A stretch of DNA of 62,317 nt, filler included, from Hausera hauseri (taxonomy: Eukaryota), in assembly GCA_046269625.1 (NCBI GenBank). It is 11 parts of 11 records of this genome, joined end to end, with 100 filler letters (N's around TTAATTAATTAA, not from the genome) between each part and the next. Parts side by side here need not be neighbours in the genome. Positions count along the whole stretch, not along the records: positions 6,052 to 13,626 come from JBJURY010005901.1; 10 more parts are not named here. The stretch is one strand, 5' to 3'. Shown here piece after piece: positions 1-30,160 of the stretch; within the stretch, counting starts at the first letter, position 1, and each line of letters starts with the position of its first letter. A program made the position numbers and the translations under genes. The notes under the pieces are model-generated. The model searched no databases. It worked only from the letters and a program-made list of their open reading frames with translations, and was not told where the DNA came from.

Positions 1-885
1 CTGCAGCATTGCATTTTGTTGTTGGTTTGTTGTTAATGCCGCAGAGATAGTTGATGCTGTTTGTGAGGTCAGTACTTCGTAAGCTTTGTCCGCCAGTTCG
101 GCTAGCTTGTCCAGAGCCGTGGAGTCCTCGATCACGGTAAGCAAAGCTCTTATTTGAAGCGGCAATGCATTTAAGAAATAGAGACGAAGAAGTTCTGGGC
201 TATGCTCAGATGTCACGACAAGGGTGTTGAGGTCAGACAAAGATATGCGTAGGAATTCAGAAGGCTTCGGAAGGCCCATGGTGTTATCGTTGAAGAACGT
301 TTGAATGATTGAGTCGATTGAAGGCTCAGTAGGCTTCAGAACGCCATTATACAGTTGAGTATATAAATCATTGTGCTGAAGGATATCGATTATATTGGTA
401 ATTTTAGTTTTGATGGAAGCTGGTAAGTGGAAAAGAGGTTGTTGGCCTTGGATAAAGAGTCGACGACGTTTTGTTATTGGAGCCAAAATTGGTGCAGTTT
501 TAGCCAAGTTTGTGTAGAGTTTTGGCTGTCGAGGAAGTATTCGGTGCACGTGAATGAGTGAGGAAGGTGTGTTGTGTAGAAATGTTGGAAGCGCTGTGTT
601 TGGGTAAATGAATGACAGGGATCTCTGGTTTGGTGATTTTGTCAATGGTATCGATTGTGGGTGATGAATCCATGCCACCACGGATACAGAAGTGAATGTA
701 AAGACAAATGTAGGTTGAGGAAGATTGTAAAGTTCCAGCGAAAAGCACTATAGATCCGTTGTGTGTAAGGTAGAAATCAGAGGAATGGAGTGAGGTAGAG
801 ATGAAGGTGTGAATGGCTGCAGTGTGTAAATGTAGTGCTGTGTATGAGTGTATGTATTTGTTATGTAGAAAAAGAAAGGTGGAGT
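1..885 (-). pseudogene. gag: Ubiquitin-like domain + Gag (degenerate), copy A1
   Basis: ...DFYLTHNGSIV...CLYIHFCIRGG|MDSSP followed by sequence homologous to gag of A3/A4; frameshifts present. Confidence 0.75.
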
Positions 886-1004
886 AGGGAGAGGTGATAT
901 GCCCGGGGGCGTGTTGTGGGCAGCAACGAAAGGCGTTATCTGACCCACTGGTGCATGGTGGGCCGCGGGACCTCAGCCTCTCCGCGGCGGGTCCCAAATT
1001 TCGG

Positions 1005-2750: not shown

Positions 2751-2818
2751 ATTCCCTTAGAATTGTGACTCCTCACTCTACTTAAGAATAACAATGTTTT
2801 CTGGGGATTTTCCTTACG

Positions 2819-3433
2819 TCATCTCTGCATATTGTGAATGGAAACAAGAAAAATCTGAAAAATATCTCGAATTTTAAAGTTTAATTCATCAAATTTATCG
2901 TAACGACGCATGGTAAACTCGACAAGAGATGTTTTTAACTCAGCAATTTTAAATAGTAATTTTCCGACATCTTCGGCATTTAGTTTATTTTCCATATTCA
3001 TGCAATTAAATTCACCAACCTGTGATCTGCGTGTTGGCTACGGCATGCTCAGTCCGCCGAAAATGAGCACTTGGATGGTCGGTTGGTTTCTGAATCCACA
3101 AAATCAGAACGGCTGCGTACAGGAATGTGGCTGAGATTTCTGAGACTTCTGACACAAATTATTATTATTTGCTTGATGTTTGTCTCNNNNNNNNNNTCTC
3201 ATCCAGCATTTCTTTGTGGCAATAGAAAAAAATAAAAATGCACCATTGAATATCGAGTTGAATGAATCTGTTAATTCCTTGTTCGGTGTATTGTAGTTTC
3301 TGCAGCTTGTTTCAAAATCTTTAAGAACCAAAATACCATCGACGTCGGTGATACAAACCATGATATTTTTGAGAATAATATCGTCGACTTTAAAACTCTC
3401 AAGATTTGTTAGAAACTGAATAATATCCATCAT
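2819..3433 (-). other. Unassigned sense-oriented coding fragments within the A1 LTR cargo
   Basis: Met-initiated ORFs 2819-3001 and 3104-3433 with protein-like composition; family not recognised. Confidence 0.3.
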
Positions 3434-3944
3434 TTTAGATTGAATTATATTACGACCGATAAATCATAAAACTAGATCAGATCAAAATTATCCGTACAAC
3501 AAATACCAAAATGAAGATTGTGAAAATTTTCAATTTGAACAAAAATTTTTTAAAATGGCAGGTAGAAACTTTGTAACATCAAAATTCAAAACGCAATTTG
3601 TGTATTTATCTTTTTTTACCATATTCAAACAAATTTTATATTTTTTATGTTCAAAAAATTTTACTATGAAACGATACAAGTCAATCATCTGCAACATTTG
3701 AAATAATCAGTCTATAGACTTGAAAATAAATCAGAGATAGATTTCGTCATCTTGGCTTTTCTTTTCTTTACTGAGATTATCTTCTTCAGATGAAATATAT
3801 TCTTCCAATTGTAGCATAAGCGTTAGACTCGATTCATCTTTTGACAACTTCAAATCATTAGTGAAAGTCAAATATTTTCATCAAACTGTTTTTGATATTG
3901 TTTGAGTCTCTGTTTTGCACTGAATACTGTCTTTTTCTTGTAAT

Positions 3945-4379
3945 AGAGAAGTGTTCTTTAGCAACTTTCTCGCCACTTTCGTACGATACTTCTCATCGAC
4001 TGTCGAGATTATTCTTCTTACCGATCAACATTTTCTCAACATCAGCATTAGCGTGTTCAGCAATATTTTGCATCCATACATTGATGTTATTGAAAGAATT
4101 GGAATTTGTAACGTCGTATACCAGTAGACTTCCAGTTGCACCCCTGTGATGCGATGTAGTGATCGTTCTGAATCGTTCTTGGCCATCAGTATCCGAAACC
4201 TGCAATTTTATTTTCTTACCATCGATTTTTATGGTTTTAATTTTTAAATCAATACCAATAGTTGTGATAAATGACGGTGAAAATTGGTCATCTGAAAATC
4301 TGATTAAGAGACTAGTTTTTTCAACTCCTGAGTCTCCAATTAATAGTAATTTAAATAAATAGTTGTAATCCTTTGACAT
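3945..4379 (-). pseudogene. RAB8: Rab8/Rab10-family GTPase, intronless, 3'-truncated
   Basis: [44 protein letters not shown]; G1, G3 and G4 motifs damaged (GVEKT, SDTDGQ, KKNN); premature stop at 3993. Confidence 0.88.
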
Positions 4380-4529
4380 AAACTTCTGTCTTGATTTTTA
4401 TACAGATAGATAATTATATCGCTGAGACGAGAGATCGGGGACCACCTATGGGCCCGACGCGGCGGCAGTGAACGTCCGGCCGTATCCAACCAAATAGATC
4501 AGAGGGCGCCGGCCACTGTGGGCACCACA

Positions 4530-5950
4530 CTTCCTACCATGCAGTGATTACCGTCAGCTAAACACTTTAACTGTTATGGATGCATATCCTTTACCATTAT
4601 CTAATTATATCCTGCATCGGCTCGATTCCACTACAGTATATTCAACCATAGACTTAGCCAAGAAATATCATCAAATTCCTGTAGCACCGAAGACATCGAA
4701 AAACTGCCGTTACGACACTTTTAGACCTTTACGAATACATTTATATGCTTTTTGGTTTACGCAACGCTGCGCAGACTTTCCAACGTCACATCGATTCCAT
4801 CCTCTCGGATTTCACTTTCACGCATCCATATATCGACGATATCTTGATCCTTTCATCTTCAACTAAACAGAATGAGTAACACCTTCGTTTTATCTTCCAA
4901 CGACTTAACTATCATAATTTACAAATTAATTTTACGAAATGTCACTTCTGCCAAAAGCGTATTAACTTTCTCGGACACACCATTTCAGTAAATGGTCATT
5001 CTCCTCAGACAGAACGATTTGAAGCTGTCAAACATGTACAACTACCTCGAACAACAATAGAAATGAGGAGCTTTTTGGGAACTCTGCACTTCGTTCACAA
5101 GTATGTGCCGTACTGTTCTGAACTTACCGCACCATTTGCTCACTTAAGCAGCAGCAAAAAACATCAGCCAATCCAGTGGACACCTGATCTGGTTGGTAAG
5201 TTTGATAAGCTACGCGAAGGAATTAAGACCGTCGACATTCTCGCTTTCCCGAAGCCTGAAGCGGAACTCCTCCTTACTACAGATACTTCAACCACTGCGG
5301 TAGGCGCTGTGCTTCATCAAATACGCAAAGGAGAAAATCAACCACCAGAATTTTTCTCTTGTAAGCTAACATCCCCTAAAACTCGATATTCAACGTTCGA
5401 TCGAGAATTATTGGCCATAGTACTCGCCTTGAAGCATTTCTCCCACCTACTTGTCGCTCGCCGTTTTACCATACAGACCGATCACAAGCCCTTGTTAAAC
5501 ATCATGACTATGAAACATCCTTCTTCACGCCAAGAACGACAGATATCATACCTATTAAACATATTAACGGGGTTAATAATTTGGTTGCCGATTTCCTATC
5601 TAGGAAGGTTGGTTCGATTAATTTTTCACAAATCTTCTCTCGAGTACAACTCCAACAGAACCAGCCACCTCAGGACATGCTTAATTCTTTTAAGTCTTAC
5701 ACATTTGTTGACGGCGTGACTTTAGACACTTCCAAACCAGGTCATTCCGTAATAATTCTCGCACCACATTTACAACGGCAAGCGTTTAACAGTGTACATT
5801 CACTGCACCATCTTGGTGCTAATGCAACTTTTCGCTTACTCCACCGGCTAGTAGTATGGCCGACTATGCGTTCTAATGTGCAAACATGGGTTAAGGAGTG
5901 CGTGGATTGCCAGAAATTTAACATCACCAAACATTTGAAGCCATCAATAT
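4530..5950 (+). mobile_element. pol: Gypsy family A copy A2: RT-RNase H-integrase N-terminal fragment, target of the A1 insertion
   Basis: PCSDYRQLN..DAYPLP, DLAKKYHQIPV, YIDD, RSFLG, TDTS, RELLAI, TDHKPL, integrase HHCC; frameshifted. Confidence 0.9.
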
Positions 5951-5951
5951 A

Positions 5952-6051: not shown

Positions 6052-6107
6052 CGAAGGAAGTAGGTACCAATTTCTTTGTTGTTTGTTTGCCTAATTTGCT
6101 TTCTTAG

Positions 6108-6278
6108 TGGAAATGGAGAATTAATTGGACCTCTGAAATTGGGCTGTAAAACGTTGTTCCTTTACGATTTTCAGAACAAACAAATTGAAGTTAAACCGTT
6201 GTGCATTATGGATTTTACATCCACGAGTAGAAACAACGGCAGGGTTTTGGGAGACGGTTGTTTGACTTTATGTTGGAG
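6108..6278 (+). pseudogene. ATAT1: Alpha-tubulin acetyltransferase exon with a frameshift and a stop
   Basis: LIG.LKLGCKTLFLYD...VKPLCIMDF/YIHE*KQRQGFGRRLFDFMLE, flanked by ttcttag and gtaatt splice sites. Confidence 0.8.
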
Positions 6279-7479
6279 GTAATTGAATTTGTTTTCGTTT
6301 GGTGTAGTTTTAGTTAGGTTGGTAATTTTTGTCTAAATGACTTCATAGATTGGGGCAATGTACTGTAGTTTGGTTAATTTGTGTTGTGTTTTATTGCTAC
6401 TTAAACATCAGATTTTCTCAAGTTTTCTTTGGATTATTTTTGGGTCTCTTATCAGACATTATATATGATTATTATTCGAATGGACCAATGTTTTTTGTAT
6501 TCCGATAATGAGAATAAAGTTGTAGTTCATGTCAGCGACTATTTTTTTGACTATCGTTCGTGTACGTTATTTTTATGATAATAGAAATATTACATTATTC
6601 TTATCACTTGCGCTGTGTTTCGTTTGTGTCGTTTTTCACTCTCCCTCTGACTGACTAATTGACTCAGTCATTCACAGTCATTTTGAGTTAGCTGTATCAA
6701 TAAGAATTTCTTTAATGAAATTACGTATGAAAATGAGGTGTTTTTACCATTTACACCGTTTGGTGGGATTTGTTTTCAACATTTCTGCTCTCCACCTCTC
6801 GTTTGTATGCATATTTTCACAATCGGCCAGTGGTTTATTTGAATAAGACTGATCAGCTTGATCGTTTACAACAGTTTTTAATGTGGATTTCTGTTTTCTA
6901 TCTAATATTGAATATACCCAGAGTTTGATCTCTTATCGCTGTTTATAATCATATCAAGTTGGCAGCAATGCGTATTATTGTTAGTAAACTATTTTCTATT
7001 ATACGTATTACAATTATTGATCTGTCTATGATTTTATATGAAATTTATGAATAACTAGATTAGTATTTTATTAAATGTCCAGTTTATTTTCATGAATTTA
7101 TTGAGGATTATCATCCATTATTTGTGATTATCTGCAAATGTGGATTAAACAGTTGCCCACGCATGAGGTGATTTTTCAACAAATTCATGCATCTAACCAG
7201 TATTTGGATCAATGATGTATTTGTTATGGAACAAATAGTATCCTTTTGTGCTTTCTGCATACATTAGAATAACGGAACGAATATTCTATGTATCACTTGT
7301 CGCCGATGATGTAAGTTGATGCTGAAGATTGTTTTTTTATTCTCTTTGGGTGCATAGTTCTGACTGTTCGTTTTTATGGTTTGACATGGTGAGATAGACT
7401 CAGTCACGCATGCTTTATCCAATAATTCTTTTTAGAAGTTTAGAGAAATATCGCCTGATCAGTATCTCCTTTGCGCATC

Positions 7480-10400
7480 ACTACTCTTCCGATAGCAGTT
7501 AGCGTTGTGGATCAATCGTTGATCGGTTAATGTACGAGGGTTTTAGATATGAAACTGAGTTTGATTAGTTTCCGTGGGGTGACAATGGTTGGGGAGTGAC
7601 TCGCTAACCGTGTCAAATTTAGAATCGATGGGTGTTTCAACGAGCTTCTAATGCGTCGCCTGGTTGCATGCAGCGTACGCGTTGTGTATTAGAAACATGA
7701 GCGAGTGTCTGTTTTGGCATTGGGTTTGATCCCCACCTGTTTTGGTGCGGCGTTTACGCTACGTGTAACCAGGCATTTGCTTTTTGGTTACTGTAGGGTT
7801 TTAATGAAGTCGGGATATCTTAGATGCAATCCTGGTGTGACTCGATACCTGTACGGCATGAGTTTGTTTTCGTATTGTCGTACGTTCCGTTTCCGGAAGT
7901 ACGCGCGTTGGGGTAATATGTGTTTCAGTTTGAACCGGGTCAGGTCAATTTTCTCAGTTTTCTCAAAGATTGTCTATTTCTGACATGCTGGCTACGTCTT
8001 TTTGCATAGGATATTCGGTATCGGAATCATTATAGCCGAATGCTGGTTTTATGTTGGATAAGTGGACTATATGTTTATCATTGTCTTGCAGTATTTTGGT
8101 GTTATGCTCAGTGATTTCTATGAGCTTGTAGGGGCCCGTGGAGTATGGTTCAAAACCGTGTCTTTGTTGGCTTTTGAGCAGACAACGGATGCATCTTGTA
8201 CATTCTTAGGCATGATTGGTTTTTTGTGATTGTTGTGGAGCGCAGGGTTCGTGTCTATTGACAGGAAATGCTTCCGAGCTTGATTTAAATAGGGGATTAA
8301 AATTACTTCGTCGTTGCTCACCAGATCTTGTGGGAATGTGAGGTGGGCACCAAATAATAGTTTGCCGTAGATGTATCGATGCTAGTGTTTGGAGTGTTTC
8401 TCCACCCTAATAGCACAATGAGTAATGCATCCAGCTAGTTCTTGTTGTCGTGGCATAGGATTTGTAGAGATGATTATAGTATACGATGAAATCGTTCGAT
8501 AAAACCATTTGCCTGCGGGTGATAGGGCGATGTGTATATGCTTTGAATCAAGCGATTTAGTTAATTGGTTAAACACGGCTGATTCGAATTACGTACCTTG
8601 ATCTGTTATAATGTTTTTAAGTACTCCAAGCCGAGAAATCCATGTATTTAGCAATACAGCCACAACGCTTTGCGTTGTTATTTGGCAGATTGGAATGGCT
8701 TCGGGCCATCTTGTTTCCCGGTCGAGAATGGTTAAGATGTACTGATATACGTTAGATTCAAGGAGTAATCCTACTTTGTCAATGTGGATGGTTTCAAACC
8801 CTGAGCCAGTAGGATAGTGTAGGATTGTTGGTTGTATAGTCTTGTTGATTTTATACTGTTGGCAAAGTGAACATTCTTTTGTCCGACGCTTTAATGTCGC
8901 TTAGCATGTGACGCCAACAAACTCTACTGATTAATAGGCGAGCTGTGGCTTTTGATCCAGACTGATGGATGTTGTGAATGGTGTCAAACGCCTGTTTCCG
9001 TAGGTTTTCTGCCAGAATTGGGTGTGGACAACCATTGAAGATGGTATTGTAATGTATTCCATCCTTTCTGTCGACTGTTTTGAAGAACGTGACATCCTCT
9101 TCATGTGAAGGGTTCGATCGAAAAACCTTTTCCATCAAAATTGGGTCAAAGGATATTGTCGATATCACAGTTTTGGAAAAGAAATCAGCAATTGTGTTAT
9201 CATTTCCAGTTGTGTTCTATCTGGAATGAGAATTCCGACAGAAATGAAATATGTCGCTCTTGACGAGGCGATGGGTTTTTCATACTCATCATGCGAATGA
9301 GTAGTTTGTGAGCCGTGCGGATTGTGAACACATTTCCTTCGAGGAAATGCCTGAAGTGTTTGACACTGAGAATTATGGCTAGTAATTCTCGGTTGAAATT
9401 AGAATAGTGTTGCTCAGCCGAATTGAATTTGTGGAAAAAGAATTCAATGAGAGTATTTTTGCAATTTATTGATTGGGCAAGCATGGTACCTGCAGCGATG
9501 GTGGATGCATCTGTTGTTAAGATGAACGGTGCATCTTGTTTAGGATAGTGTAGCGTAGGCATGTGAAGAAGCGCCGTTTTTGCATTGGCAAATGCTTGTT
9601 CAGCCTCATCCTTCCAGTTTACCCGGGATTTCTTGGGTCCTTGGCTTAGAGCAGATAGAGGTGACAGGATTTCGGAACAGTGCGGAATGCAGCAATGGCA
9701 GAAGTTGATTGTGCCAAGGAAACTGCGAAGTCCAGTCACTGTGGATGGCTTCGGTATTTGTTTGATGGTTTCTATTCGTTCAGGAAGAGGACTGTGGCCA
9801 TGTGGTGTTAAGTGAAGTCCAAGAAATACGGCTTCTGTTTTAAAGAATGAACATTTGTTTATGTTTAACTGTAATATGTTTTCATTCAACCTATGAAACA
9901 TATGTTTGAGGTGTGTTTTGTGAGTTGCTTCATTGGGTGATGTAATCAATATGTCATCTATATATGGGATTACATAAGGCATGTCGATGAAGACTTGGTT
10001 TATGTGATGTTGGAATGTTTGACCTGCATTCCGTAAGCCGAATGGCATGTGTAGATACTGAAACTAACCAAAAGGCGTTATTACGGCCGTTTCTGGAATG
10101 TCTTTGGTAGCCACTGGGATTTGGTGATATACCCTTTCAAGATCGATTGTGCTGAATATTGCCGCACCATGTAGGCGATGCAATATGTCGGTTACCAACG
10201 GTGTTGAATATGAATTGTGGACGGTGACGCTGTTTAACATTCTATAGTCACCACAAGGATGGTACGAACCGTCCTTTTTGAGAACCATGTGCAATGGTGA
10301 TGTCCACGGTGATGCAGAGCGGCGTATTATGCCACCTTCTTTAAGGTGTCGGAATTCGGCTTCCGCGGCTGCTCTCTTGAGTATGTCAAGCTCCTTCCGG

Positions 10401-12624
10401 GTTTTCCGAATCAGTCAATCACATGATGTGACGAGAAAGTGTGATGATTTCACCTCTTTCTATGTTGGTTGTGTTGAGAGTTTCAACAAGTTAGGGTATT
10501 GCGCTTGCAGCAATGGTTCGATGTCAATGGGGTTTCCGATTTTTATACCTGTGACGGCGTTTATAGTTAGCGTGACTGATGTTAGAGGCAATGGATTTCT
10601 CCCGCTAGTGGGTTGTTGATTTCGGCAATCAACTGAGATTGCAGTGATCTAGGAAGTCAGAATCTAGGATTGGTTACATGACATCGGCCAATATGAATGA
10701 CCAAGCGTATGGTTGGCCTTTCAGATGAATATGTAAGTACAGTGTACCTGTGGTTGCTATTCGCGTGCCCTTGGCAGCTTTGAGCGATGCATACGAAGCC
10801 AACGTAAGTCTAGCGTGTTCGCTATGTATCAGCGATAAAGCTGCACCTGGGTCGATTAGAAAATCGAGTTGTTTCGAAATGTCAGAGTGTAATGGCTTAG
10901 CCTCGAGAGTCAAAATAGCATCGACAATGCGTTCGCTATTTGTATATGGCAGTTGTGATGATTGGGTTTCCAGTCGACGTGTCCTTGGTCGTCTGGGCCT
11001 ATTTAGTTTGCAGCCGGGTCAGCAGATTTTTTCATCTGGACCGAAATGATTGTGTCTTGCATTTTTATATTTGTGGATGGCTTGTCGAATTGACAACCAT
11101 GGTAATATTTTTAGGAAGATTCTCCAAATCGTGTGTGAAAATAACAAATTTAGGACAATTTGCCTTTCTTTCTCTTTGGGATTGGCGCCGAAATGACGGT
11201 TTGTCTCTGGCTGGAAGATTCTTGTGAGTTACAAGTGCCTGCAGTGCGGCAATGATCATGTCCAGATGACTTTGCTGGGTCGCTGTGACGGAGTTAATGT
11301 TTTCCGTTAGTGCGGATTCTACGGTGCCTTTAGTGCACTGGTATATTTAGTCGGCTTTCGATGCCATATTCTCCAATGTTGTGTCGGGCCGTAATAGCAC
11401 AAGGGCCGCTTGAATTTGGTTTGTCAAACTACTCAGGAAGTAGCGCCGTAGTATGTGCTGGTTGCTGTGGAGGTCCAACTCAGAATTGTTGAGGTCTGAG
11501 CGTAACTTTTGAAGCAGAGCAGAAGGTTTCAAATTCCCTGTCTGTCGCTTGGTGAAAACCAAGTTGAACTAGTCTTGTTGGAATGGCAGATACACTTTTT
11601 ATGCGGCTGCTTTGATTTTGTCAAACGGCTTTTCATCTGACAGTAACGTGTCCAGATTTGTTATTTCTGTGAGCCTTGTTGGCTGCAAGTATTGTATTAA
11701 TGTTAAGGCTTTGTTTAGTCGGCCGGTAATGCTGCATTGAGTGGTCCATGTTTCAAACACATGGAACCACTTCAATGGAGTTCCGTCCGAACTTATAAAG
11801 AAGGTGGGACAAGCTAATTTGGGTGGTTTAGCCGGTGATGCTAAAGCAGTTTCTACTTTTTTGTCGGGCGTATGGGTGTCAACGCCTCCTTTTAGTTTTG
11901 GAGTCACCAGTATAATGTTATTTTCTGCCAAAATTGTATAGCCTGTGCAATTATTTTTGCGTAACAATTTCCCATTATGAGAAAATATATGCTCGGGATA
12001 TCGTTGGTTTAAAACTTCCAGCATTCCCGACATATCTAGAGTGGATGGAAAGCGATGAGCTTTTGTATGACACCAATTTTGTACAATGAGTTGTACTTTG
12101 TTTGGCGTACTATCGGCCGGTGTTGTTTCACAATAGGGAATTTGGTTGACGAGTTCAGTCGACTAACGATTGGGTGAATGGTTAAATGGCGACTTTTCGC
12201 TTGTGTGTGATATTTTGTCGCGGTTAGTATAATCGTGTTTGTATTTCGATTTGACGGTGTTGACGCATGTGTTAGTGCTAGAATATTTTGGCACTTGTTC
12301 AATGTCACGCGTTGTAATTTTTTGATTGCAGTTGATTTTGTTGATAAAACTGTCAGTGGGTATTACATGATCATGTTTGGTGATGCACAAATGTGTGACC
12401 GGATTAGATTCCACGGCACTTGTGTCAATTTGAGCCTGACTGCTATCAACGGTTGTGAGCAATGTCTGAGCCGGATTTATTTCAACAGCTGCGTTTGTGT
12501 TATAAGGCATGAATGCGGTAACCGCTGCCACCACTTTCGAGTTCTTAGTCTTGCGGATGGAACTTTTTGATAAAAAACGGAAAAGTATGTAAATGCAGTC
12601 GAATAAAACGACGGAAACAGGCAC
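7480..12624 (-). mobile_element. Gypsy (CsRn1-like) family B internal region: N-terminal extension, UBL, gag, protease, RT, RNase H, integrase (degenerate)
   Basis: FLIDPGA protease, PCGDYR, MPFGLRNAGQTFQ, YIDDIL, TDAS, RELLAI, integrase core ~8400-8830; possible PPT GGAAGAGTAG near 7480-7490. Confidence 0.85.
11884..12096 (-). CDS. Ubiquitin-like domain preceding family B Gag
   Basis: Open frame VQLIVQNWCHTKAHRFPSTLDMSGMLEVLNQRYPEHIFSHNGKLLRKNNCTGYTILAENNIILVTPKLKGG (71 aa). Confidence 0.75.
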
Positions 12625-12919
12625 TGATAAGACGAGAAAACAATGATAGTAATTTTTATTAAATTATCGCAAATCGTCCGCCGAGGCGTACGAGTCCTCG
12701 GTTGAGGAGAGGGCCGAATTTATTTTCGGACTAGAATTAATTGATGTTGGTTCACGTCTTGTCGGTTCTAGCCGGCGTCGACGGCGCCGTATTGGGATTT
12801 CGCTGGGCTGGAGCTCACTGTCCTAGTCTGCCGCTTGTCGTCGATTCGACGGTCAGGAATCAACTGGCTCTCCGATGGAACCAGCAACTCTAATAGGCGA
12901 TCTGCAGCCGCCATCAGTC

Positions 12920-13513
12920 TCATGAATACCGGTAGGAAAATCGACGAGTCGAAAAGTCGTCGATTTTCCCGTCGTCGTAGAACCGGTTGAGCGTTCCCAC
13001 AGGTAAGGAGTAAGGATCATCTCGTCCCAACCTGGCTAGGTGCCGTATGAAACGGCTCCGTTGCAGCAGCTTCCGTATTTCCAGAAAATCCGAATAAAAT
13101 CGGTATGGGGCTTGCTTGTCGGTGTTGCGGCGTTGTCTTCCGCGGGAAACGGTATCTCTTCGGGTCAGGCACGGCTGTTCTGGCTGGAGGATCGAGACTT
13201 GATTGTCATCTGGGTACTGTATTCTCGCCCGTTTTGGTTGGGATCGCTTAGGGATCCGGTGCTCCGATGTCAAATTGATAACTTTGTTTAGTTCAACTTC
13301 AAAATTGGCTTCAGGTTTCGATACGATTGCCGTTCCTTGTTTTCGGGTGATTGGTTCACCAGTTTTGGGCTTGGTGGGAGGCAGCATAGGCACAATTGAC
13401 TTCTGCGTCGTCTGGCCCTTTCCGACTGTTTTCGATGTTTCTGGCATGTTTTTCATTGTTCGAGTTTGTTTTTCTGTTTCTAACTCTTTGTATATATTTT
13501 TGACTAAAATCAA
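12920..13513 (-). CDS. Unknown 197-aa ORF upstream of family B gag
   Basis: Open frame with a low-complexity N-terminus and basic C-terminal region; no family recognised. Confidence 0.35.
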   Translation of the reverse strand: MILVKNIYKELETEKQTRTMKNMPETSKTVGKGQTTQKSIVPMLPPTKPKTGEPITRKQGTAIVSKPEANFEVELNKVINLTSEHRIPKRSQPKRARIQYPDDNQVSILQPEQPCLTRRDTVSRGRQRRNTDKQAPYRFYSDFLEIRKLLQRSRFIRHLARLGRDDPYSLPVGTLNRFYDDGKIDDFSTRRFSYRYS

Positions 13514-13726
13514 CTGGTTTTAAGCTGTGGATTTAAATAAATGAATTTAAATCCACAGATTTTTGTTGTTGATCACAAAGTGCTGGTCACTTCGGCACTT
13601 GTGATTCTCCTCTTTTGATTTTGCTANNNNNNNNNNNNNNNNNNNNNNNNNNNNNNNNNNNNNNNNNNNNTTAATTAATTAANNNNNNNNNNNNNNNNNN
13701 NNNNNNNNNNNNNNNNNNNNNNNNNN

Positions 13727-14170: not shown

Positions 14171-14333
14171 ACTGGTTGTACGTTGAGATTGAAGGCGCAA
14201 TTTTTCACTGTTTGCTACGATGATATTTGATTCGTAAACATAAAATGTGCTACTAAATCTGCAGATGAAATCCGAACATAAACGTCGGGCCAATTTTGTC
14301 GAAAAAATTATTTTAAAATTCTTTCGAAGCGGA

Positions 14334-14432
14334 AGATCGGAGTTCCGCCTATGGGCCCGATGCGGCAGCAAGGGACGCCCGGCCGTGCCCGACCAAATGG
14401 GCCAAAGGGGATTGGCCGCCGCGGACGCCACA
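14334..14432 (-). repeat. Start of the 3' LTR of copy A3, preceded by PPT GGGGGTGG (14433-14440)
   Basis: The PPT is followed directly by TGTGGCG; ~100 bp homologous to 4434-4529. Confidence 0.75.
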
Positions 14433-17400
14433 CCACCCCCGTGGCAAAGTGAAGACTATAAAGATTAAAACAAACGGGACAAAGAAACAAGCGCTAAACT
14501 AAAAATTGTCTGTGTCAGTCGGTCTTAGTGTGGACAAGACTTTGGGTGCCTTCTAGTGATTTTTCCATGCTATACTTGCTGAATGTTACTCTGCGTGTTT
14601 TGTCTTTATGCGGTGTGTTTGCTTGTAGAGTTTGAAGTTGGGGAAAATATTGTCGGATTTTGTTGTGAGTGTTGTGATGTGCGAAGACCAGTCAAAATGA
14701 AGAGAAGAAGAAGGTGAAGGAGGAAGCGAGATTGTTGAAGACGGATGATTAAGGGTATTCAAGATAGTGTTAGAAGACGAAGGAATGGTAAAATGTGTAG
14801 TGGCGGATAAAGGAAGAGAGAAAATGTTAAAGTAGAAGTTAAAATTGGACTGGGTAAAAGAGTGGAAGTGGAAGATGAAATAGAGTTTGTGGTAGAGAGA
14901 GAGGAAGAGAGATAGGTATAGAAGTAAAGAGAGGAGAAAGTTGCGAAGCGGAAATGAAATGGGTAAAAGACGATGTGTGAGGAGAAATGGGGAAAAAAAG
15001 CACCGAAGATGAGGAAGGTGTGGAGGAAGAAAGAGAGAGAAAACACGACGAGGAGGGACAAAGCGGAAGAGAGCAAGAAGATGGAGAAGGCGAAGGAAAG
15101 TAGTTGGAAGGTGGTATGCAAAAGGTTGGAATGATGAACGGGGTAGATAAAGAGATTGGTGAAGTCGAAGTGATGTCTGGCGGAAGAGGTGTTGTAAAAG
15201 GAAAAATAAAGTTGTCACCAGGGGATGAAGTAGGTGTGCGACGGCTTGAAGGTGCAAAATCGGATGGGGAAAAGAGCCTGAGCTGTCGGAAGAAATTGAA
15301 GTAGAAGTCTTGTGAGAAAATGTAGGGGAAAATGGGTTAAAGAATTGAGCAGAAATGGAAGGTGAATTGTTGGATTTCTGCACGTCGTGTAAAGATGTTA
15401 GTGGAGAAGTGGTTTCGATGGGAGACCTGTCGTCAATGAAGAAAGCAGGTTAAGCGTTGTTGATGTGGACTGTTACTTCTTTGTCGTTCTTGAGAGTGAT
15501 GATATTGTGAGAGTGTAAACGAATTACTTTGTAAGGGCCAACATACTGAAGTTGAAAGCCACACGGCATCTGATTCCTTAACCCTACGAACTTGGCAGTA
15601 TATAAATCGTCGGGTATGTAAAGTTTATTTCCGTGTAATAGTCTACAAAATGAGTCTGCTGATCTCAATGATATGTCGCTGTGCCGCTTGTATGGTTTCA
15701 TCTGAAGGAATATTGTCCAGATCAGTCACCTACCAAATAATGCTTCTGCAGGCGAACAGCCTGTATAAGTAGATGGTGTGTTCCGCCATCCAAGCAGAAC
15801 GTACGGAAGGAGTGTAGTCAAACTGCGATTAGACTCAGCAGGGATTTTGAGAGACATTTTCACCGTTTGGTGAAAGTGTTCAAGAAGGCCATTCAATTGA
15901 GGATAATATGGTGACATGTGAATGTGGTTAATTCCTAATCGATTGATAAGAGCTTTAAACATGTTGGATTCGAACTGCGGACCTTGGTCCGAAATGATGT
16001 GGCGATGTGATCTAAACCTGCTGATCAAAGTGCGGATGAAAACGACTGCGATTGTTTCTGTGTTGGTGCTCCGAAACGGGACAGGCTCTGGCCATAGCGA
16101 GGAACGGTCAATCATTGTGAGGATGAACTGATGGCTGTTATCTAAGGGTAGTGGGCCTACAAGGTCAATGTGAACAGATTCAAAACGAGACGTGCATGGC
16201 AAATGATATAGTGGTGGATTTAAGTGCTTAGTAACTTTGTATTTTTGGCATGTCACACACTGCCTAACCAATGCCTGCACGTCGGAGCGCATAGACGGCC
16301 ATATTACTTGGCGTTGTAAGAGTCGAAAAGTGGCCTTGACACCGAGATGATGCAACGAATGAATGCTCTTCAATGATTCTTTTTGAAGCGATTCAGAAAG
16401 GATGACTTTAGGATTTTTGGGTTTGGAGGTATCAAAGGCCACACCATCGATGGTTTTGCACGATTTAAAAGATTTAATGATATCTGGAGGTGGCTGGTTT
16501 TGTTGACATTTGGACTGAGGGAAAACTGGTCTAAAATCAATCGAGATGATGGATCGGGACAAAAAGTCAGCTACTAAATTGTCCACTCCGTTTAGGTGCT
16601 TAATTTCAAAACTAAATGTGGACAAATACGATATTTGCCTCTACTGAAGTGAAAAGGCGATTTCATGGTGAGAATTTGGAGCAAGGGCTTGTGGTCCGTT
16701 TGTATTGTAAAAGTTCGTACAGTTAGTACATGTTTAAAGTGTTTTACGGCAAGGACCATTGTAAGCAACTCTCGGTCAAAGGTGAAACATCTTTGCTCTT
16801 GTGCCGTGAATTTTCGAGGGAAGAATTCTAATGGCTCACGGGATCCATTTCTGACTTGATGGAGGACAGCACCTGCAGCTGTTGTGGATGCATCCTTGGT
16901 TAAGAAGAATTCTGCATGGGAGTATGGATAGGCTAGGATTTCCACGGTTTTAGATTATATTTAAGGTGATCGAAAGCTTTGACTGGCTTGGCGGTCCACT
17001 GAATAAGCTGTTTTTTCTTACCAGAGCTTAGTGATGCAAATGGAGCCGTTAGAGTGGAGCAGTGTGGAACATACTTATGAATAAAGTGCAAGGTTCCGAG
17101 GAAAGAACGCATCTCTGTTGATGTACGTGGTAGCTGTATGTTTTTAAGATGTGTGATGAGCTCTGGCTGAGGTGAATATCCGGAGGAGCTAATAACATGT
17201 CCTAGGAAGTTGACCTTATGCTGAAAAAAGAGCATTTGGAGAAATTAATTTGCAAGTTGTTTTAGTGCAAACGCTGGAAGATTAAACGTAAGTGCTCGGA
17301 TTGTTGTTTCGAGGAATATTATGCAATTAGGATATTATCGATATAGGGATAAGCAAAGTCTAAACCTGAAAGAACTGTATCAACATGCCTTTGGAAGGTC

Positions 17401-20015
17401 TGGGAAGCGCTTCGGAGTCCAAAAGGCATGAAAAGGTATTCGAAAAGGCCGAAAGGTGTAATGACAGCCGTTTTCAGAAAGTCTGCTGGGGCCACCGGAA
17501 TTTGGTGGTATGCTTTGTGCAAATCAAATCAGGAAAAGATGGTCGAACATGGAGCCTGTGAAGGATATCGTTGATTAATGGTAGAGGATAGGCATCTATT
17601 GATGTTGTGATGTTGAGTTGGCGGTAATGAGCGCATGGGCAAAAGGTACTATCTTTTTTGGAACTTCATGTAGTGGTGAAGACCAAGGGGATTTGGATCT
17701 TCTGATTATCCAGTTCGAAAAACTCAGCCTCCACTACCTGTCTGCGGCAAGACGATAGCGGGTGGACCTTTTGACTTATTAATCTTTGATGTGCTGTTAC
17801 TATGTGATGGAAGGTGGATTTAGGTGGTACGAATGATTTGCCCTTTTGCAACAGACATGTGCAGGAAGACGAAATATATTGCTGTAAGTCAGAGGGCAAC
17901 GATGAAAAGTTTTCAGATGGTGTCGGTGCATCGTGGCTGGCTGCAGTTGAGGTATGAGTTGTAGACGAAGTATTGTGACAAGGTGGTATTAGGTGCAGGA
18001 TGTTTGTATTGAAGATGGTGTTGACAGCTGTATTATCAGTAATAGGTGCCACGCAGTTGGTAATATCGTATTTGTTGCCGTAATAAAAATTTCTATATAA
18101 AGAATGATTATAAAAATAATTTAAATCAAAAGTCGTTTTCTTTAGTATTGACTTGATAGAAGCGATCACCCGGGTGGTCACCAAAATGCTGCTAATTTAA
18201 TTAAAATTATTTCCGATCTTTAAGGAACATCGTTTGTAGTCTACAAGTAAATTGTAGTGGGACAGAAAGTCTAAACCCAATATAGGCGTGCATACATTGG
18301 CTACTGTAAATTTCCAAGTGAATATATTTGGGAAATTTGGAAGGGTAAAAGTTAATTTAGTAACACCAAAAGTTTGTAAAGGTTTACCGGACGCAGTGAA
18401 CAGTTCCTTTTTTGAAGTGAAATTGTTTTGAATGTGCTGTGTTGGTGGTAATAAAGAGATTGCTGCGCCGGTGTCTACGAGAAAATTAATGTTTTGCTTT
18501 GTTGGAGTGACGACTGCTGCTTCCAACGTAAATACAGCAAAAGAAATGTGTCGGCTATCTTTTTTTAGGTTATTGCCTTTGCTAGAATTTGCCGTGTGTC
18601 CTAGCGGAAAAATCAGTTTTTTGTATCTGGTGAGTTTGGCCTACTACTTTGTGTGGGTTTAATAGTGTTGATTTTATTGTGCGCATTGTAGTTACAGCCA
18701 GGTAGGCATTTTTGTGCTTTTGTTCCAAATTTTGCGTAATAGAAGCAAACGATGTTGCTTGTATTAAAATCAGGGGAGTAAAATTTACAACCGATGCAGC
18801 ATTTCTAAGCATTGTTACCAAATTTGTCGTGATAGTAACAAATAGGCGACCGCGCGAGCGAAGGCGACCGTCTTTGTCGTTGATGAAATACATTAAGTGA
18901 AGCAGCCCTAGAAAAACCTTGTCGAGGCAGCGTTAACTCATTTAATTTCTCGTTTATTTCATTTATTGTTTTTTGAAAAATTTTGTTTTCTGAGCGTAAT
19001 TGCCCAATTTGTTGCTGCAGCAATATATTTTGTTATTGGTGGTTTATTGTTAATGTCGCAGAGACAGTTCGTGCAGTGTGTGAGTGCAGCACTTCATGGG
19101 CTTTGTCCGCCAGTTCGGCTAGCTTTTCCAGTGCCGTGGAGTGTTCGACCACAGTCAGCAAAGCTCTTATTTGAAGGGACAATGCATTTAAAAAGTAACG
19201 ACGAAGTTCTGGACAATGGTCAGATGTTACACCAAGGGTATTTAGGTGAGACAAAGATATGCGCAAGAATTGAGAAGACTTCTGTAGGCCCATGGCGTTG
19301 TCATTGTAAAACCTTTTAATGATACAGTCGATTGACGGATCAGTGAGCTTAAGAACGGCATTATAAAGTTGAGCATATAAATCGGTGTGGTGAAGGATTT
19401 CGATGATGTTTGTAATTTTAGTTTTGATAGAAACAGGTAAATAAAAAAACAGGCTGTTGACTTTGGATAAGGGGTCGACAAAGTTTTGTGATTGGAGTTA
19501 GAATTTATGCAGTTTTAACCATGTTTGGGTAGAATTTTGGCTGTCGAAGAAGTATTCTGTGCAAAGTGAATGAGTGGGGAGTGTGTGCTGTGTCGGAGTG
19601 TTTGAAGCATTTTGTTTTTGTAGGTAAGTGATGGAGATCGGTGGTTTGGTGGGTTTGTCCGTGGTATCAGTATTGGGTGATGAATCCATGCCACCACGGA
19701 TGCGAGTGTATGTGAAGGTAGATATAGGATGAAGAAAATTGTAGGGTTCCAGCGATGGGTATTGTAGAGCCATTGTGTGTGATATGAAAGTTAGATGACT
19801 GAAAAAGAGTGAAGATAATGTTGTAGATGGCCGCAGTGTTTAGGTGTGTTAGTGCATTTGTGCAAATGTTTATTATTTGAGAAAAAAGGAAATGCAGAGG
19901 TCGCGCGGCTGGGGGCGTGTCGCGGGGCGGCAACAAACGGTGCCGTCTGACCCAATGGTGTAAGGTGGGCGACCGGGGCTTCAGCCTCGCCGCGGCGGGT
20001 CTCAAAATGCGGGGT
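14433..20015 (-). mobile_element. Gypsy family A copy A3, full internal region (leader, UBL-gag, PR, RT, RH, IN, low-complexity tail), degenerate
   Basis: CHCC boxes, [59 protein letters not shown] motif. Confidence 0.92.
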
Positions 20016-20049
20016 AGCCGAGTTCTCTATGTAATATTTCTCCGTTGGT

Positions 20050-20110
20050 CACTCTGGCCCACTGATTTGTGCCGTATTTTATTATGGCTGATGTAAGAAC
20101 TTCATCCTCA
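20050..20110 (-). pseudogene. CDC5L: CDC5L Myb repeat 1 fragment
   Basis: EDEVLTSAIIKYGTNQWARV versus canonical [20 protein letters not shown]; short match. Confidence 0.7.
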
Positions 20111-20154
20111 ATATATCTAGGCACCTTATTGGGCTCATTAGAATTGATACCGGT

Positions 20155-20910
20155 TTTGTTCAAAGTGCTCAAAAGTGTGATTAGCTTTTTTGATTTGCAT
20201 ATTCGCATAAATTTATGTGATACATTCGGAATCAAATTGTGCATATTTTCGCTTTTAACAGTGGAAAATATATCCGTCGGAACAATATCACCACATGCTT
20301 CGGTGACCTGTTTGGTAATCGTTGGGTTGCAAATAATTAACTGACTGACAATCGGTTCCTTATTAACTGGACGAGATGTCTGTATAGATGTTTTAGCCAA
20401 AATGTCCGATACGACACTTTTCAAACTCATCAATTTTATATCACCTAATAATGTGGCTTTTAATAACAGACGGAGGCGATACTATAAAATCGCATGGAAC
20501 AAGATCTTTCGGGTTATTTAATATAACGCTGTTCAGATTCAAACTACGGCCGAAACTAATTATGACATTATTCGGTTGGTTGCAGAGATTCCACGTTGGC
20601 GCAATAACAATAGGCTTTGGGGTACTTTCGTTCGTGGGTAAAGACGACTCGTTACACATTTTATTCATCAGCAGTAAAGTAAATGCTAATGTTTTGTCGC
20701 CACGTGTTTCATCGCAGATAATCGTGTTACATTCGTGCAAAATGACGCGAACACTTAAGATCTGAATATTCATAGGTTTCACATATATATATCGGTAGTA
20801 AGTGCCTTTCAATTTCCATTGACAGCTCCAAATAGGAAAAACTGATTTTTGGCGGTTGCCACGCAGATGATTTATTTGTTGTATTAATAGTGAAATGGTT
20901 ACCGTCGGAC
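20155..20910 (-). pseudogene. DDX28: DEAD-box helicase fragment, DDX28-like
   Basis: GNHFTIN..SFSYLEL, Q-motif KPMNIQ, degenerate Walker A ETRGDKTLAF, IAPTWNLCNQ, MHNLIPNVSHKFMRI. Confidence 0.7.
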
Positions 20911-24974: not shown

Positions 24975-25325
24975 CAATGTCTCAATGCTAATGTGATTAC
25001 AAAAGAGAATCCAACATCATCTTCTCAATTCAAACCAACAAAATGTATTTTGCATACCATATCAATTTCTTGAAATATCCAATTTCTGTAAAATTCAAAA
25101 ATCCAATCACACTTAAAACATGTAAGTTTGGGTATTTGCTGAAGAATGTTAATGACGATGATTTGATCTTCCTGGATGAGGTACTAAACGATACGGTGTT
25201 TAATTGGATTTTCGAATTTTATAGAAAATGGATATTTCAATAAATTGATGTGTTATCCAAAATACATTTTGTCGGTTTAAATTGAGAAGATGATGATGAT
25301 GATGGTGATGATGATGACGACGACT

Positions 25326-25366
<41 letters not shown>

Positions 25367-25400
25367 TTCTCTTTTGTAATCACATTAGCATTGAGACATG
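24975..25400. repeat. Long inverted repeat (arms ~24975-25108 and ~25203-25400) with a (GAT)n expansion in the right arm
   Basis: Arms are reverse-complementary by direct reading; both strands translate CLNANVITKENP. Confidence 0.9.
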
Positions 25401-26673: not shown

Positions 26674-29110
26674 NGTGCAAATCAGTGCAGGAAAAAATTG
26701 TCGAACCATGGAGCCTGTGAAGGATATTGTTGATTAATGGTAGAGAGTAGGCATTCATTGTTATGATGTTGAGTTGGCGGTAATTACCGAATGGGCAAAA
26801 GATACCATATTTTTTAGAACCATATGCAGTGGTAAAGGCCACGGAAATTTGGATCTTCTAATTATTCCTAATTTTTCCAGTTCGAGAAACTCAGCCTCCA
26901 CTGCTTGTCGCCAGCGAGGCGATAGCGGGCTATCCTTTTGACGTATTGGTCTTTGATATGCTGTTACTATGTGATGGAAGGTGGATTTAAGTGGTACGAA
27001 TGATTTGCCCTTTTGCAATAGACGCGTTTAGGAAGACGAAATATATTGCTGTAAGTCAGAGGGCAACGATGAGAGGTTTTCCGATGGTGTCGATGCATCG
27101 TGACTGGATGCAGTTGAGGTATGAGTTGTAGACGAGGTGTTGTGATTAGGTGGTATTAGGTGTAGGATGCTCATTTTGAAGATGGTGTTGGCAGCTGTAC
27201 TATCAGTAATAGGTGCCACGCAGTTGGCAATATCGTATTTGTTGCCGTAATGAAAATTTCTATATAATGAATAATTATAAAAATAATTTAAATCGGAAGT
27301 TGTTTTCTTTAGTATTGACTTGCTGGAATCGATCGCCCTGGTAGTCACCGAAATGCTGCTAATTTGATTAAAATTGTATCCGCTCTTTAAGGAACATCAT
27401 TTCCAGTCTACAAGTAAACTCTAGTGTGACAGAAATCTGAACCCAATATAGTTGTGCGTACATTGGCTACTGTAAATTTTTAAGTGAATGTGTTTGGGAA
27501 ATTTGGAAGTGTAAAAGTTAATTTAGTAACACCAAGAGTTTCTAAAGGTTCACCGGACGCAGTGTACAGTTGCTTTTTGAAGTAAAATTGTTTTGGATGT
27601 ACTGTGTTGGTGGTAGTAAAGAGATTGCTGCGCCGATGTCTATGAGAAAATTAATGTTGATCTTTTTGTAGGTTGCTGCTTTTTCTAGAACTTTCCATGT
27701 GTCCTAGTGGCGAAATCAGTTCTTTGTAGCTGGTGCGTTTGGCCTACTATTTTATGTGGATTTAGTAGTATTGATTTTATTGTGTGTGTTGTAGTTGCAG
27801 CCAGGTAGGCATTTTTGTGCTTTTGTTCCAAATTTTGCGTGTATTAAAATCGGAGGAGTAAAATTTAAAACCGTTGCAGCGTTTCTGAACATTGTTACCA
27901 AATTTGTCGTGATAGTAACAAATAGATGACCTCGCGGGCAAAAGCGACCGTCTTTGTCGTTGATGAATTCCATTAGGGGAAGCAGCTCTAGAAAAATCTC
28001 GTCGAGACCGTTAACTCATTTAATTTCTTGTTTGTTATTAATTGTTCTTTGTGAAATTTCATTTCGTCTGAGCGTAATTGCACAATTTGTTGCTGCAGCA
28101 ATGCAATTTTTTGTTGGTGGTTTGTTGTTAATGCCGCAGAGACAGTTGGAGCTGTGTGTGAATGCTGCACTTCATAAGATTTGTCTGCCAGTTCGGCTAA
28201 CTTTTCCGGTGCCATGGATTCCTCGACCACAGTGAGCAAAGCTCTTATTTAAGGAGGCAATGCATTTAATAAGTAACGACGAAGAGGTTCTGAACTATGC
28301 TCAGATGTTACGCCAAGGGTATTGAGGTGAGACAAAGATGTGCGCAAGAATTCAGAAGGCTTCTGAAGGCCCATGGCGTTGTCATTAAAAAACCTTTGAA
28401 TGGTAGAGTCGATGTACGGCTCAGTGAGCTTAAGAACGGCATTATAAAGTTGAGCATATGGATCGGTGTGGTGAAGGATGTCGATGATGTTTGTAATTTT
28501 GGTTTTGATAGAAGCAGTTAATGAAAAAACAGGCTGTTGGCTTTGGATAAGGGGTCGACGACGTTTTGTGATTGGAGCCAGAATTGATGCAGTTTTAGCC
28601 ATGTTTGGGTAGAATTTTGGCTATCGAGGAAGTATTCTGTGCAGGTTGAATGAGTGGGGAGTGTATGCTGTGTCTGAGTGTTTGAAGCACTTTGTTTGGG
28701 TAGGTAAGTGATGGAGAACGGTGGTTTGGTGAGTTTCTCCGTGGTATCAATAGTGGGTGATGAATCTATGCCACCACGGATGCGGAAGTGTATGTGAAGG
28801 CAGATATAAAATGAAGAAGATGGTAGGGTTCCAACGAGAGGTACCATGGATACGTGGTATGTGAAGTAAAAGTCAGGTGAGCGAAGAAAAGTGGAGATGA
28901 TGTTGTAGATGGCCGCAGTGTCTAAGTTTGTTACTGTGTTTGTACAAATATGTTGATTATTTAAAAAAACGAAAAGGAGATATAGAGAGGTCTTGTAGCT
29001 GGGGGCGTGTCGCAGGGTTGCGGCGAACGATGCAGTTTGACCCAATGGTATAGGGTGGGCGGACGGGGCTTCCGCCTTGCCGCGCCGAATCATAAACTTT
29101 GGGATGACCG
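26674..29110 (-). mobile_element. Gypsy family A copy A4: leader, UBL-gag, protease, RT start (degenerate)
   Basis: Colinear with 17520-20015; CLHIHFRIRGG|IDSSP. Confidence 0.9.
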
Positions 29111-30115: not shown

Positions 30116-30160
30116 AGGCCGATAGTAAACCTGGTAGGGAGGGAACAGATGCCCACCCGG

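What the first reader, a model, noticed from the sequence alone, without database searches (positions are those of the whole stretch)
11884..12096. A second, divergent Gypsy family also has UBL-Gag (…PKLKGG|VDT)
Seen: a 71-aa open frame VQLIVQN...IFSHNGKLL...NNIILVTPKLKGG aligns by eye with ubiquitin (MQIFVK...LIFAGKQL...LHLVLRLRGG) and is in frame with Gag. No Met follows the GG, so this Gag must be translated through the UBL or from a downstream start. Extra coding sequence lies upstream (to ~12624). Inference: UBL-Gag is a lineage-level trait under selection, not a one-off accident.
Basis: partly seen in the sequence, partly recalled or inferred. Interest (0 to 1): 0.75.

Follow-up and report, generated by a model that had tools for sequence, protein, structure and literature searches.

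The report
Ubiquitin-cut Gag retrotransposon lineage
This decayed jumping gene belongs to a broad lineage of Ty3/gypsy retrotransposons that place a ubiquitin-like domain ending in Gly-Gly directly in front of the capsid protein Gag, likely so that the host's ubiquitin-cutting enzymes free Gag from a variable leader, a strategy I did not find described for retrotransposons.

Summary
Confirmed and extended. The 71-aa frame (11884-12096, minus strand) is a real ubiquitin-like domain (UBL). A profile of other Gag-upstream segments scores it above all 500 shuffles. Its model (pLDDT 85) matches ubiquitin/SUMO.

An intact relative keeps PKLKGG. 30 of 149 Gag relatives carry such a UBL. On Gag trees they group with window families A and B, on a branch separate from CsRn1 on the RT tree. 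This favours one inherited origin over two independent gains.

In related loci ORF1 starts inside the LTR and reads through a tRNA-Leu primer site and an AT-rich leader kept free of stops (8 of 11 loci), then UBL-GG, then Gag. The leader drifts and can hold host-mRNA pieces. The UBL is under moderate purifying selection, fresh ubiquitin was recaptured at least once, and the residues after GG look like a mature N-terminus.

Best reading (0.7, cleavage inferred, not shown): host deubiquitinases cut after GG and release Gag with a fixed N-terminus, as in pestivirus ubiquitin-NS3. This copy is dead (stops, frameshifts, no 3' LTR found). The host is an unidentified animal.

The parts
11884..12096 (-). 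Ubiquitin-like domain ending PKLKGG, in frame with Gag
   Evidence: 48 of 71 residues identical to intact relative P0003
11004..11883 (-). Gag (DUF7041-type capsid region, two CX2HX9CX3C-like knuckles), decayed: stops at 11601, 11571, 11349 and frameshifts near the knuckles
   Evidence: capsid part 135 of 168 identical to P0003
12097..12520 (-). Leader between primer site and UBL, read in the Gag frame; one stop (12163-12165) in 146 codons; in-frame ATG at 12510
   Evidence: (P of at most 1 stop in shuffles 0.005); the intact relative is open across it
12521..12533 (-). Primer-binding site, 13 nt complementary to the 3' end of tRNA-Leu(AAG)
   Evidence: single copy in the window; tRNA probe sequence in PMC7997516; same position reads MVAA in P0003
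12534..13001 (-). Probable 5' LTR; the 3' edge is set by the primer site, the 5' edge is uncertain (TGTGG at 13001, alternative at 13557); frame broken by stops at 12666, 12825, 12855
   Evidence: summed contig depth falls from about 1900 to 190 across 13135; no partner LTR found
10674..11018 (-). Aspartic protease region of Pol, decayed
   Evidence: open frame with a D-x-G-A motif read by eye; no Pfam match
7807..10639 (-). RT, RNase H and integrase in Ty3/gypsy order, with stops and frameshifts
   Evidence: Pfam; tblastn with intact Pol P0172, 81% over 10639-9212
674..889 (-). Family A UBL (copy 1), ending IRGG before M-D-S; in one open frame with an upstream SARM1-like fragment
28770..28985 (-). 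Family A UBL (copy 3), ending IRGG
19690..19900 (-). Family A UBL (copy 2), frameshifted, IRGG-M retained

Best explanation
The segment is a ubiquitin-derived domain fused in front of Gag in a whole lineage of Ty3/gypsy elements, and it likely acts as a cut-here signal that host deubiquitinases would cleave after Gly-Gly to release Gag with a fixed N-terminus. Shown from sequence: ORF1 opens inside the LTR and runs through the tRNA-Leu primer site, a fast-drifting leader and the UBL into Gag; Pol follows in an overlapping frame. Inferred: ribosomes start at the LTR AUG and make leader-UBL-Gag (and its Pol extension); a UCH- or USP-type enzyme cuts after GG; the leader-UBL piece is discarded. 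This would free the LTR and leader to serve RNA roles, to duplicate and to take in host mRNA pieces, on the single condition that the frame stays open. The UBL erodes over time and has been replaced by freshly captured ubiquitin at least once.
For: Fold and homology: (30 of 31 segments pass leave-one-out). The tail is conserved while the body is not: mean column identity 26%, but L/I at the Leu73 position in 29 of 31 and R/K at the Arg72 position in 24 of 31; GG itself was my selection criterion there, but it is also present in 16 of 18 loci fetched by capsid motifs alone. The residue after GG is S/A/T/G/M/V in 25 of 31, never Pro, and bulky/basic/Pro in 1 of 31 against 30% in the linker (P 2.6e-4); the next residue is Asp in 14 of 31 against 11%. 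Ser then Asp are also the commonest residues 2 and 3 of 104 ordinary Met-started Gags. The leader is open in the Gag frame in 8 of 11 loci (62-167 codons, 19-29% GC, shuffle P at most 0.006 each); all 8 have an in-frame Met 5' of the primer site and 3 of 8 have none between primer site and UBL; the primer site is crossed in all three phases. The LTR is bounded by a polypurine tract plus TGT and by the primer site. dN/dS: Gag 0.03-0.16, UBL 0.16-0.49, leader 0.41-1.0. Precedent: pestivirus S27a-fragment/truncated-ubiquitin/NS3 is cut by host UCHs to give an authentic N-terminus (PMC8310069, passages).
Against: No cleavage, RNA or protein data. The window UBL is far from ubiquitin (10-16% identity in ubiquitin structural matches) and the Arg74 position is variable (R in 9 of 31), so recognition by an ordinary deubiquitinase is not assured. 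At least one clade member (P0012) goes from a Met at the primer site straight into Gag with no UBL, and four others start at a Met close to the core. Family A and 3 of 31 proteins have Met right after GG and could start there. 3 of 11 loci have stops in the leader frame, and in 2 of the 8 open loci a second frame is also open. The loci come from one subclade and include near-relatives, so they are not independent and are not family B itself. The start of transcription is unmapped, so the LTR AUG is not shown to be on the mRNA.
Confidence: 0.7

Rival explanations
1. The released leader-UBL, now ending in a free GG, is itself a product: it is conjugated to host proteins or soaks up ubiquitin readers, carrying captured host domains with it, to blunt host control of the element. 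Compatible with cleavage, but puts the selected function on the N-terminal piece.
For: The free GG tail is what conjugation needs (established knowledge). Near-canonical ubiquitin in 4 loci and P0033 (PF00240 72-91 bits). Leaders carry pieces of CNOT1, Rrp44, H2A, cohesin SA, Hsp90, Arp8, SARM1.
Against: The UBL body is only 26% conserved, even fresh copies drift (50-66% identical to each other), the cargoes differ from element to element, and leader dN/dS is near neutral.
Confidence: 0.12
2. The UBL is not cut by the host. It stays on Gag as an N-terminal folding, trafficking or proteasome/ESCRT-contact domain, or is removed by the element's own protease.
For: Many host proteins carry integral UBL domains, and the low-confidence single-sequence model matched ubiquilin UBLs first. 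Burro gypsy elements carry an internal SUMO-like motif (PMC6431247, passage).
Against: Integral UBLs do not need a GG tail (established knowledge), yet the L-x-GG tail is the conserved part and the residues after it look like a mature N-terminus. An uncut Gag would carry leaders from tens to about 900 residues of unrelated sequence.
Confidence: 0.1
3. Gag starts downstream (Met after GG, non-AUG start or splicing) and the UBL is a hitch-hiking relic of an old mRNA capture.
For: GG-Met in family A and in P0008, P0009, P0018; UBL-less P0012.
Against: UBL dN/dS under 0.5; leader held open; 28 of 31 proteins have no Met at the junction; in run X1, 12 of 28 listed UBL differences are synonymous against 22% expected (P 0.012; only 40 of 66 differences were listed).
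Confidence: 0.06

Closest known systems
CsRn1 clade of Ty3/gypsy (CsRn1, PwRn1, AgCR; PMC2582038, passages read)
   Same: Gag of the DUF7041 type with CX2HX9CX3C knuckle; PR-RT-RH-IN order; nearest named RT relatives (CsRn1 Gag-Pol P0278).
   Different: Primer is tRNA-Leu, not tRNA-Trp; two knuckles in most members; separate RT branch (42 rows, SH-aLRT 98, beside a 23-row branch with CsRn1); UBL-GG and translated LTR/leader ahead of Gag; the paper has no mention of ubiquitin.
Cytopathic pestivirus ubiquitin insertions (BVDV Osloss, CP Rit; PMC8310069 and PMC13517609, passages read)
   Same: Captured host ubiquitin mRNA, often with other host fragments in front, used as a host-cleaved signal giving a viral protein its authentic N-terminus; repeated captures.
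   Different: There the inserts are recent, sporadic and near-identical to ubiquitin in an RNA virus; here the domain is fixed in a deep retroelement lineage, mostly eroded beyond Pfam detection, and sits ahead of a capsid protein.
Ubiquitin-ribosomal fusions, esp. FUBI-eS30 (recalled, no call)
   Same: Diverged UBL with GG removed by cross-reactive deubiquitinases to release a mature protein.
   Different: Host genes; the UBL is at the very N-terminus, with no variable leader.
Burro giant gypsy elements of planarians (PMC6431247, passages read)
   Same: Gypsy elements with a SUMO/ubiquitin-like motif among extra domains.
   Different: The motif lies downstream of Gag between MATH and BCL-2 domains; no GG-Gag junction described in the passages read.
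Ty1 GAG starting within the LTR, and LTR-mediated capture of host mRNA (both recalled, no call)
   Same: ORF1 starts in the LTR and crosses the primer site; intronless host fragments inside an LTR element.
   Different: In Ty1 those residues are part of Gag; here a UBL separates them from Gag.

Membership tests
Ubiquitin-like (beta-grasp) domain | Beta-grasp fold | tested here: met
   predicted model pLDDT 85; Foldseek prob 1.0, TM about 0.7; VIA Z 7.7, rmsd 2.7, 67 aligned; the alignment used included two ubiquitin-like rows, but the single-sequence model gave the same family weakly
Ubiquitin-like (beta-grasp) domain | Sequence homology to ubiquitin | tested here: met
   transitive only: held-out profile scores P0001 18.7 bits (0 of 500 shuffles) and PF00240-positive P0033 43.4; direct Pfam search negative
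Type I (processed) ubiquitin-like proteins | C-terminal di-glycine after the last strand | tested here: met
Type I (processed) ubiquitin-like proteins | Cleavage after GG by a protease | not testable with these tools
   indirect only: residue pattern after GG
Type I (processed) ubiquitin-like proteins | E1 activation and conjugation | not testable with these tools
   none
Ty3/gypsy LTR retrotransposon | gag then pol in PR-RT-RH-IN order | tested here: met
Ty3/gypsy LTR retrotransposon | tRNA primer site after the 5' LTR | tested here: met
   13-nt match to tRNA-Leu(AAG) at 12521-12533
Ty3/gypsy LTR retrotransposon | Paired LTRs and target-site duplication | tested here: inconclusive
   no second LTR in this copy; related loci show one LTR between polypurine tract and primer site
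CsRn1 clade | CX2HX9CX3C Gag knuckle | tested here: met
   P0003, twice; definition from PMC2582038
CsRn1 clade | tRNA-Trp primer site | tested here: not met
   tRNA-Leu(AAG) here, tRNA-Leu(CAA) in the loci
CsRn1 clade | RT groups with CsRn1 | tested here: not met
   separate starred branch in a quick LG+G4 tree with a long-branch warning at the root

The most novel reading that the evidence does not exclude
The ubiquitin spacer turns these elements into gene-capture expression platforms: because host deubiquitinases reset Gag's N-terminus, any host mRNA piece spliced into the LTR or leader, with its own start codon, can drive Gag, the cargo is made as a cargo-UBL-GG protein that may itself be conjugated or act on the host, and the lineage renews the spacer by recapturing ubiquitin when it erodes. 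An unchecked note on another genome reports the same layout in a BEL/Pao element, which would make it a convergent design across LTR superfamilies.
Probability: 0.3. Interest if true: 0.92.

Novelty: new variant of a known kind. Interest (0 to 1): 0.78.

Why it matters
LTR retrotransposons are thought to start Gag at its own AUG and mature it with their own protease. A lineage that depends on host deubiquitinases would add a new host factor and a new Gag expression strategy. It would explain how an element can load its LTR and packaging leader with host mRNA fragments without losing Gag, and so offers a route to chimeric genes. It also gives a natural series from near-canonical ubiquitin to 10-15% identity domains with a kept tail, useful for asking how little a deubiquitinase needs to see. 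The main claim can be tested with a small reporter.

Tried and rejected
No own genome is held. Pfam and PDB sequence searches with the single UBL found nothing. The Atlas listed a ubiquitin cluster at 0.90 with 149 of 256 features for P0003's UBL, a lead only, and nothing for the family A UBL (0.76). The single-sequence model was weak (pLDDT 64; Foldseek E 0.5; VIA Z 4.0). P0003 found no loci in metagenome or viral contigs, nor did the subclade alignment in viral contigs. No RNA holder was listed. No 3' LTR was found for this copy (best local score 40 against shuffled maximum 46). A search of viral contigs for a tRNA ending in the primer-site complement gave a phage tRNA-Met in 2 of 3 loci and nothing in the third, so the Leu assignment rests on PMC7997516. 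An independent origin for P0043's UBL, suggested, was dropped: forcing it into the clade is not rejected (p-AU 0.76). More than one ubiquitin recapture is not shown (p-AU 0.11 for the five fresh copies as one clade); the UBL tree in that call did not finish. Three GG-bearing Gags (P0068, P0087, P0125) failed the UBL profile and were not counted. Host identification failed: none of 20 UBL-clade Gags looked up carries a species name. No complex prediction was run (enzyme-substrate pair, host unknown). Literature searches listed no paper whose title or abstract start describes a UBL-Gag retrotransposon; the library lacks most subscription papers and Repbase reports. PMC3248453 (no 'ubiquitin') and PMC10144533 (passages) gave nothing relevant. 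No supplements were read.

Full report
Setting. The window is a string of contigs joined by N spacers; the finding lies in the piece 6052-13626. On the minus strand this piece holds a decayed Ty3/gypsy element (family B): Gag, protease, RT, RNase H, integrase, with many stops and frameshifts. Three copies of a second family (A) and a fragment of a third element lie on other pieces. SARM1-, SLBP- and UBR4-like fragments point to an animal host; it could not be named. Public run X1, which may be the source sample, has 6287 contigs that lie on this piece, so family B is a multi-copy repeat there.

The observation. The 71-aa frame is as quoted and runs into Gag. One close intact relative exists, P0003 (648 aa), found in both word-based searches. 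It has a 272-aa leader, the same domain ending PKLKGG, and a Gag with two CX2HX9CX3C-type knuckles. Identity to the window copy is 46% in the leader, 68% in the domain and 80% in the capsid part. Single-sequence searches do not recognise the domain.

It is a ubiquitin-like domain. phmmer with P0003 gave 2381 hits, of which the best 150 were returned. Of the 149 other than P0003, 48 have at least 45 residues ahead of the capsid core and 33 of these have a GG 3-40 residues before it. 30 of the 33 match a common profile; 3 do not. One, P0033, is plain ubiquitin by Pfam (81.5 bits) and P0043 also passes the cut-off. A profile of 25 segments, without the window rows, P0003, P0033 and P0043, scores the window domain above all 500 shuffles with or without the GG, scores both family A domains likewise (0 of 500 with GG, 1 of 500 without), and scores P0033 at 43.4 bits. 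Leave-one-out with near relatives removed passes 30 of 31 rows. The 31-row profile retrieves ubiquitin from the PDB at E about 1e-16, but it includes P0033. The model built on that alignment has pLDDT 85 and matches ubiquitin and SUMO along its whole length.

One lineage. On a Gag tree of 143 rows (9 hits dropped because they begin inside the core) 32 of 33 UBL-bearing rows, families A and B among them, fall on one side of a branch with SH-aLRT 94, with 5 rows that show no UBL. A 64-row subset gives 97, and forcing the outlier P0043 in is not rejected. On an RT-RNase H tree of 72 rows (58 of 120 Pol hits, chosen by me, 11 loci, 3 window pieces) families A and B share a starred set, and all UBL-linked Pols lie in a 42-row branch apart from the branch with CsRn1. 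Family A is represented there by its RNase H only, and four Pols were linked to their Gags by equal contig length, an inference. The knuckle is CsRn1-like but the primer is not (PMC2582038, passages), so I file the lineage beside CsRn1, not in it. All 20 clade Gags looked up come from unnamed ENA, JGI or Logan contigs, which may be why it has gone unnoticed.

How ORF1 is laid out. Eighteen related loci were fetched by capsid motifs, not by the UBL (L019 is unrelated). Sixteen show a full UBL ending in GG; one starts 3' of it and one is frameshifted. Their primer site matches tRNA-Leu(CAA), and the window has a single 13-nt match to tRNA-Leu(AAG) at 12521-12533 (probe sequences in PMC7997516, one passage; the CAA-type 12-mer is also the Steamer primer site, PMC8905726, one passage). 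In 11 loci the primer site lies 5' of the GG on the contig. In 8 of these the 62-167 codons to the UBL are free of stops at 19-29% GC (shuffle P at most 0.006 each); the other 3 have stops in that frame, two of them with a neighbouring frame open. All 8 have an in-frame Met 5' of the primer site, 3 have none between it and the UBL, and the site is crossed in all three phases. Where pol ends on the same contig, a G-rich tract and TGT mark the LTR start, and the Met lies well inside the LTR. P0003 fits: Met1 is 128 codons 5' of the primer-site peptide. The window copy has one stop in 146 leader codons (P 0.005). These loci are one subclade with near-relatives, so the counts overstate independence.

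Selection. dN/dS is 0.03-0.16 for Gag (5 pairs), 0.16-0.49 for the UBL (8 same-type pairs; 0.84 for one mixed pair, 2 saturated) and 0.41-1.0 for the leader (6 pairs). In run X1 none of the 40 listed differences (of 66) falls in the KLKGG codons, and 12 of 28 in the UBL are synonymous against 22% expected. Across the lineage the UBL body is 26% conserved but the tail keeps (R/K)-(L/I)-x-G-G. The residue after GG is small in 25 of 31 and never Pro; Asp follows in 14 of 31; Ser-Asp is also the commonest start of ordinary Gags after Met. That ubiquitin-Pro bonds are poorly cut and that such N-termini are stable is recalled, not from a call.

Recapture and cargo. Four loci and P0033 carry near-canonical ubiquitin (72-91 bits) while sister elements score 24 bits or less. 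They are nested among eroded types, so at least one recapture is implied; more than one is not shown. Six of 31 proteins carry host fragments in frame in the leader, and each family A copy in the window has a different set upstream of its UBL, one in frame.

Mechanism. Shown: domain identity, order, open frame, selection pattern. Inferred: translation from the LTR AUG, cleavage after GG by a host deubiquitinase, disposal of the leader-UBL. The closest tested precedent is the pestivirus case, where an S27a fragment plus truncated ubiquitin is cut by host UCHs to give NS3 its authentic N-terminus (PMC8310069 and PMC13517609, passages). Against: no expression or cleavage data; strong erosion of the UBL; UBL-less and GG-Met members; transcription start unmapped. 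I put 0.7 on this reading, 0.12 on the released piece being the selected product, 0.1 on an uncut or self-cut domain and 0.06 on a relic.

Novelty. Six searches listed no paper describing UBL-Gag; Burro elements have an internal SUMO-like motif elsewhere in the polyprotein (PMC6431247, passages). An unchecked note of this scan reports a similar layout in a BEL/Pao element of another genome (e1-7907883); I did not test it and do not count it as support. Verdict: a real feature, a new variant of LTR retrotransposon architecture; interest 0.78.

Noticed in passing
window 900-4530 (minus): Family A copy 1: an LTR-like start (TGTGG at 4530, 66% like the sequence 3' of integrase in copy 2, 14254-14433) is followed by intronless Rab, SLBP and SARM1-like fragments; the last SARM1 piece is in frame with UBL-Gag. 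The fragments may lie inside a multi-kb LTR; the primer site of family A was not identified.
   Followed up: partly
window 20000-21300 and 29366-30160 (minus): Cullin, DEAD-box and Myb-like fragments upstream of family A copy 2, and a UBR4-like fragment upstream of copy 3: each copy carries different host cargo.
   Followed up: partly
P0011, P0016, P0020, P0042, P0009, P0018: 6 of 31 UBL-Gag proteins have recognisable host pieces in frame in the leader (Rrp44 and CNOT1, histone H2A, 5'-nucleotidase, cohesin SA, Hsp90, Arp8); in four of them a piece lies 5' of the primer-site peptide.
   Followed up: partly
L007, L012, L013, L014, P0033: Near-canonical ubiquitin nested among elements with eroded UBLs; L014 (fresh) is sister to L008/L009 (eroded type) on Gag and RT trees, suggesting recapture plus module exchange.
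   Followed up: yes
window 4537-5951 (plus): RT-RNase H-integrase fragment of a third element of the same lineage, back to back with family A copy 1.
   Followed up: partly
L008, L010, L013: Contigs with terminal overlaps and a single LTR between pol and ORF1: collapsed high-copy assemblies or one-LTR circles.
   Followed up: no
P0012: Clade member whose Met overlaps the tRNA-Leu primer site and leads into Gag after 16 residues, with no UBL: a loss or the ancestral state.
   Followed up: no
window 57866-58441 (minus): piggyBac-type transposase fragment (PF13843).
   Followed up: no
window 24977-25399: Inverted-repeat element of about 420 bp around a GAT microsatellite.
   Followed up: no
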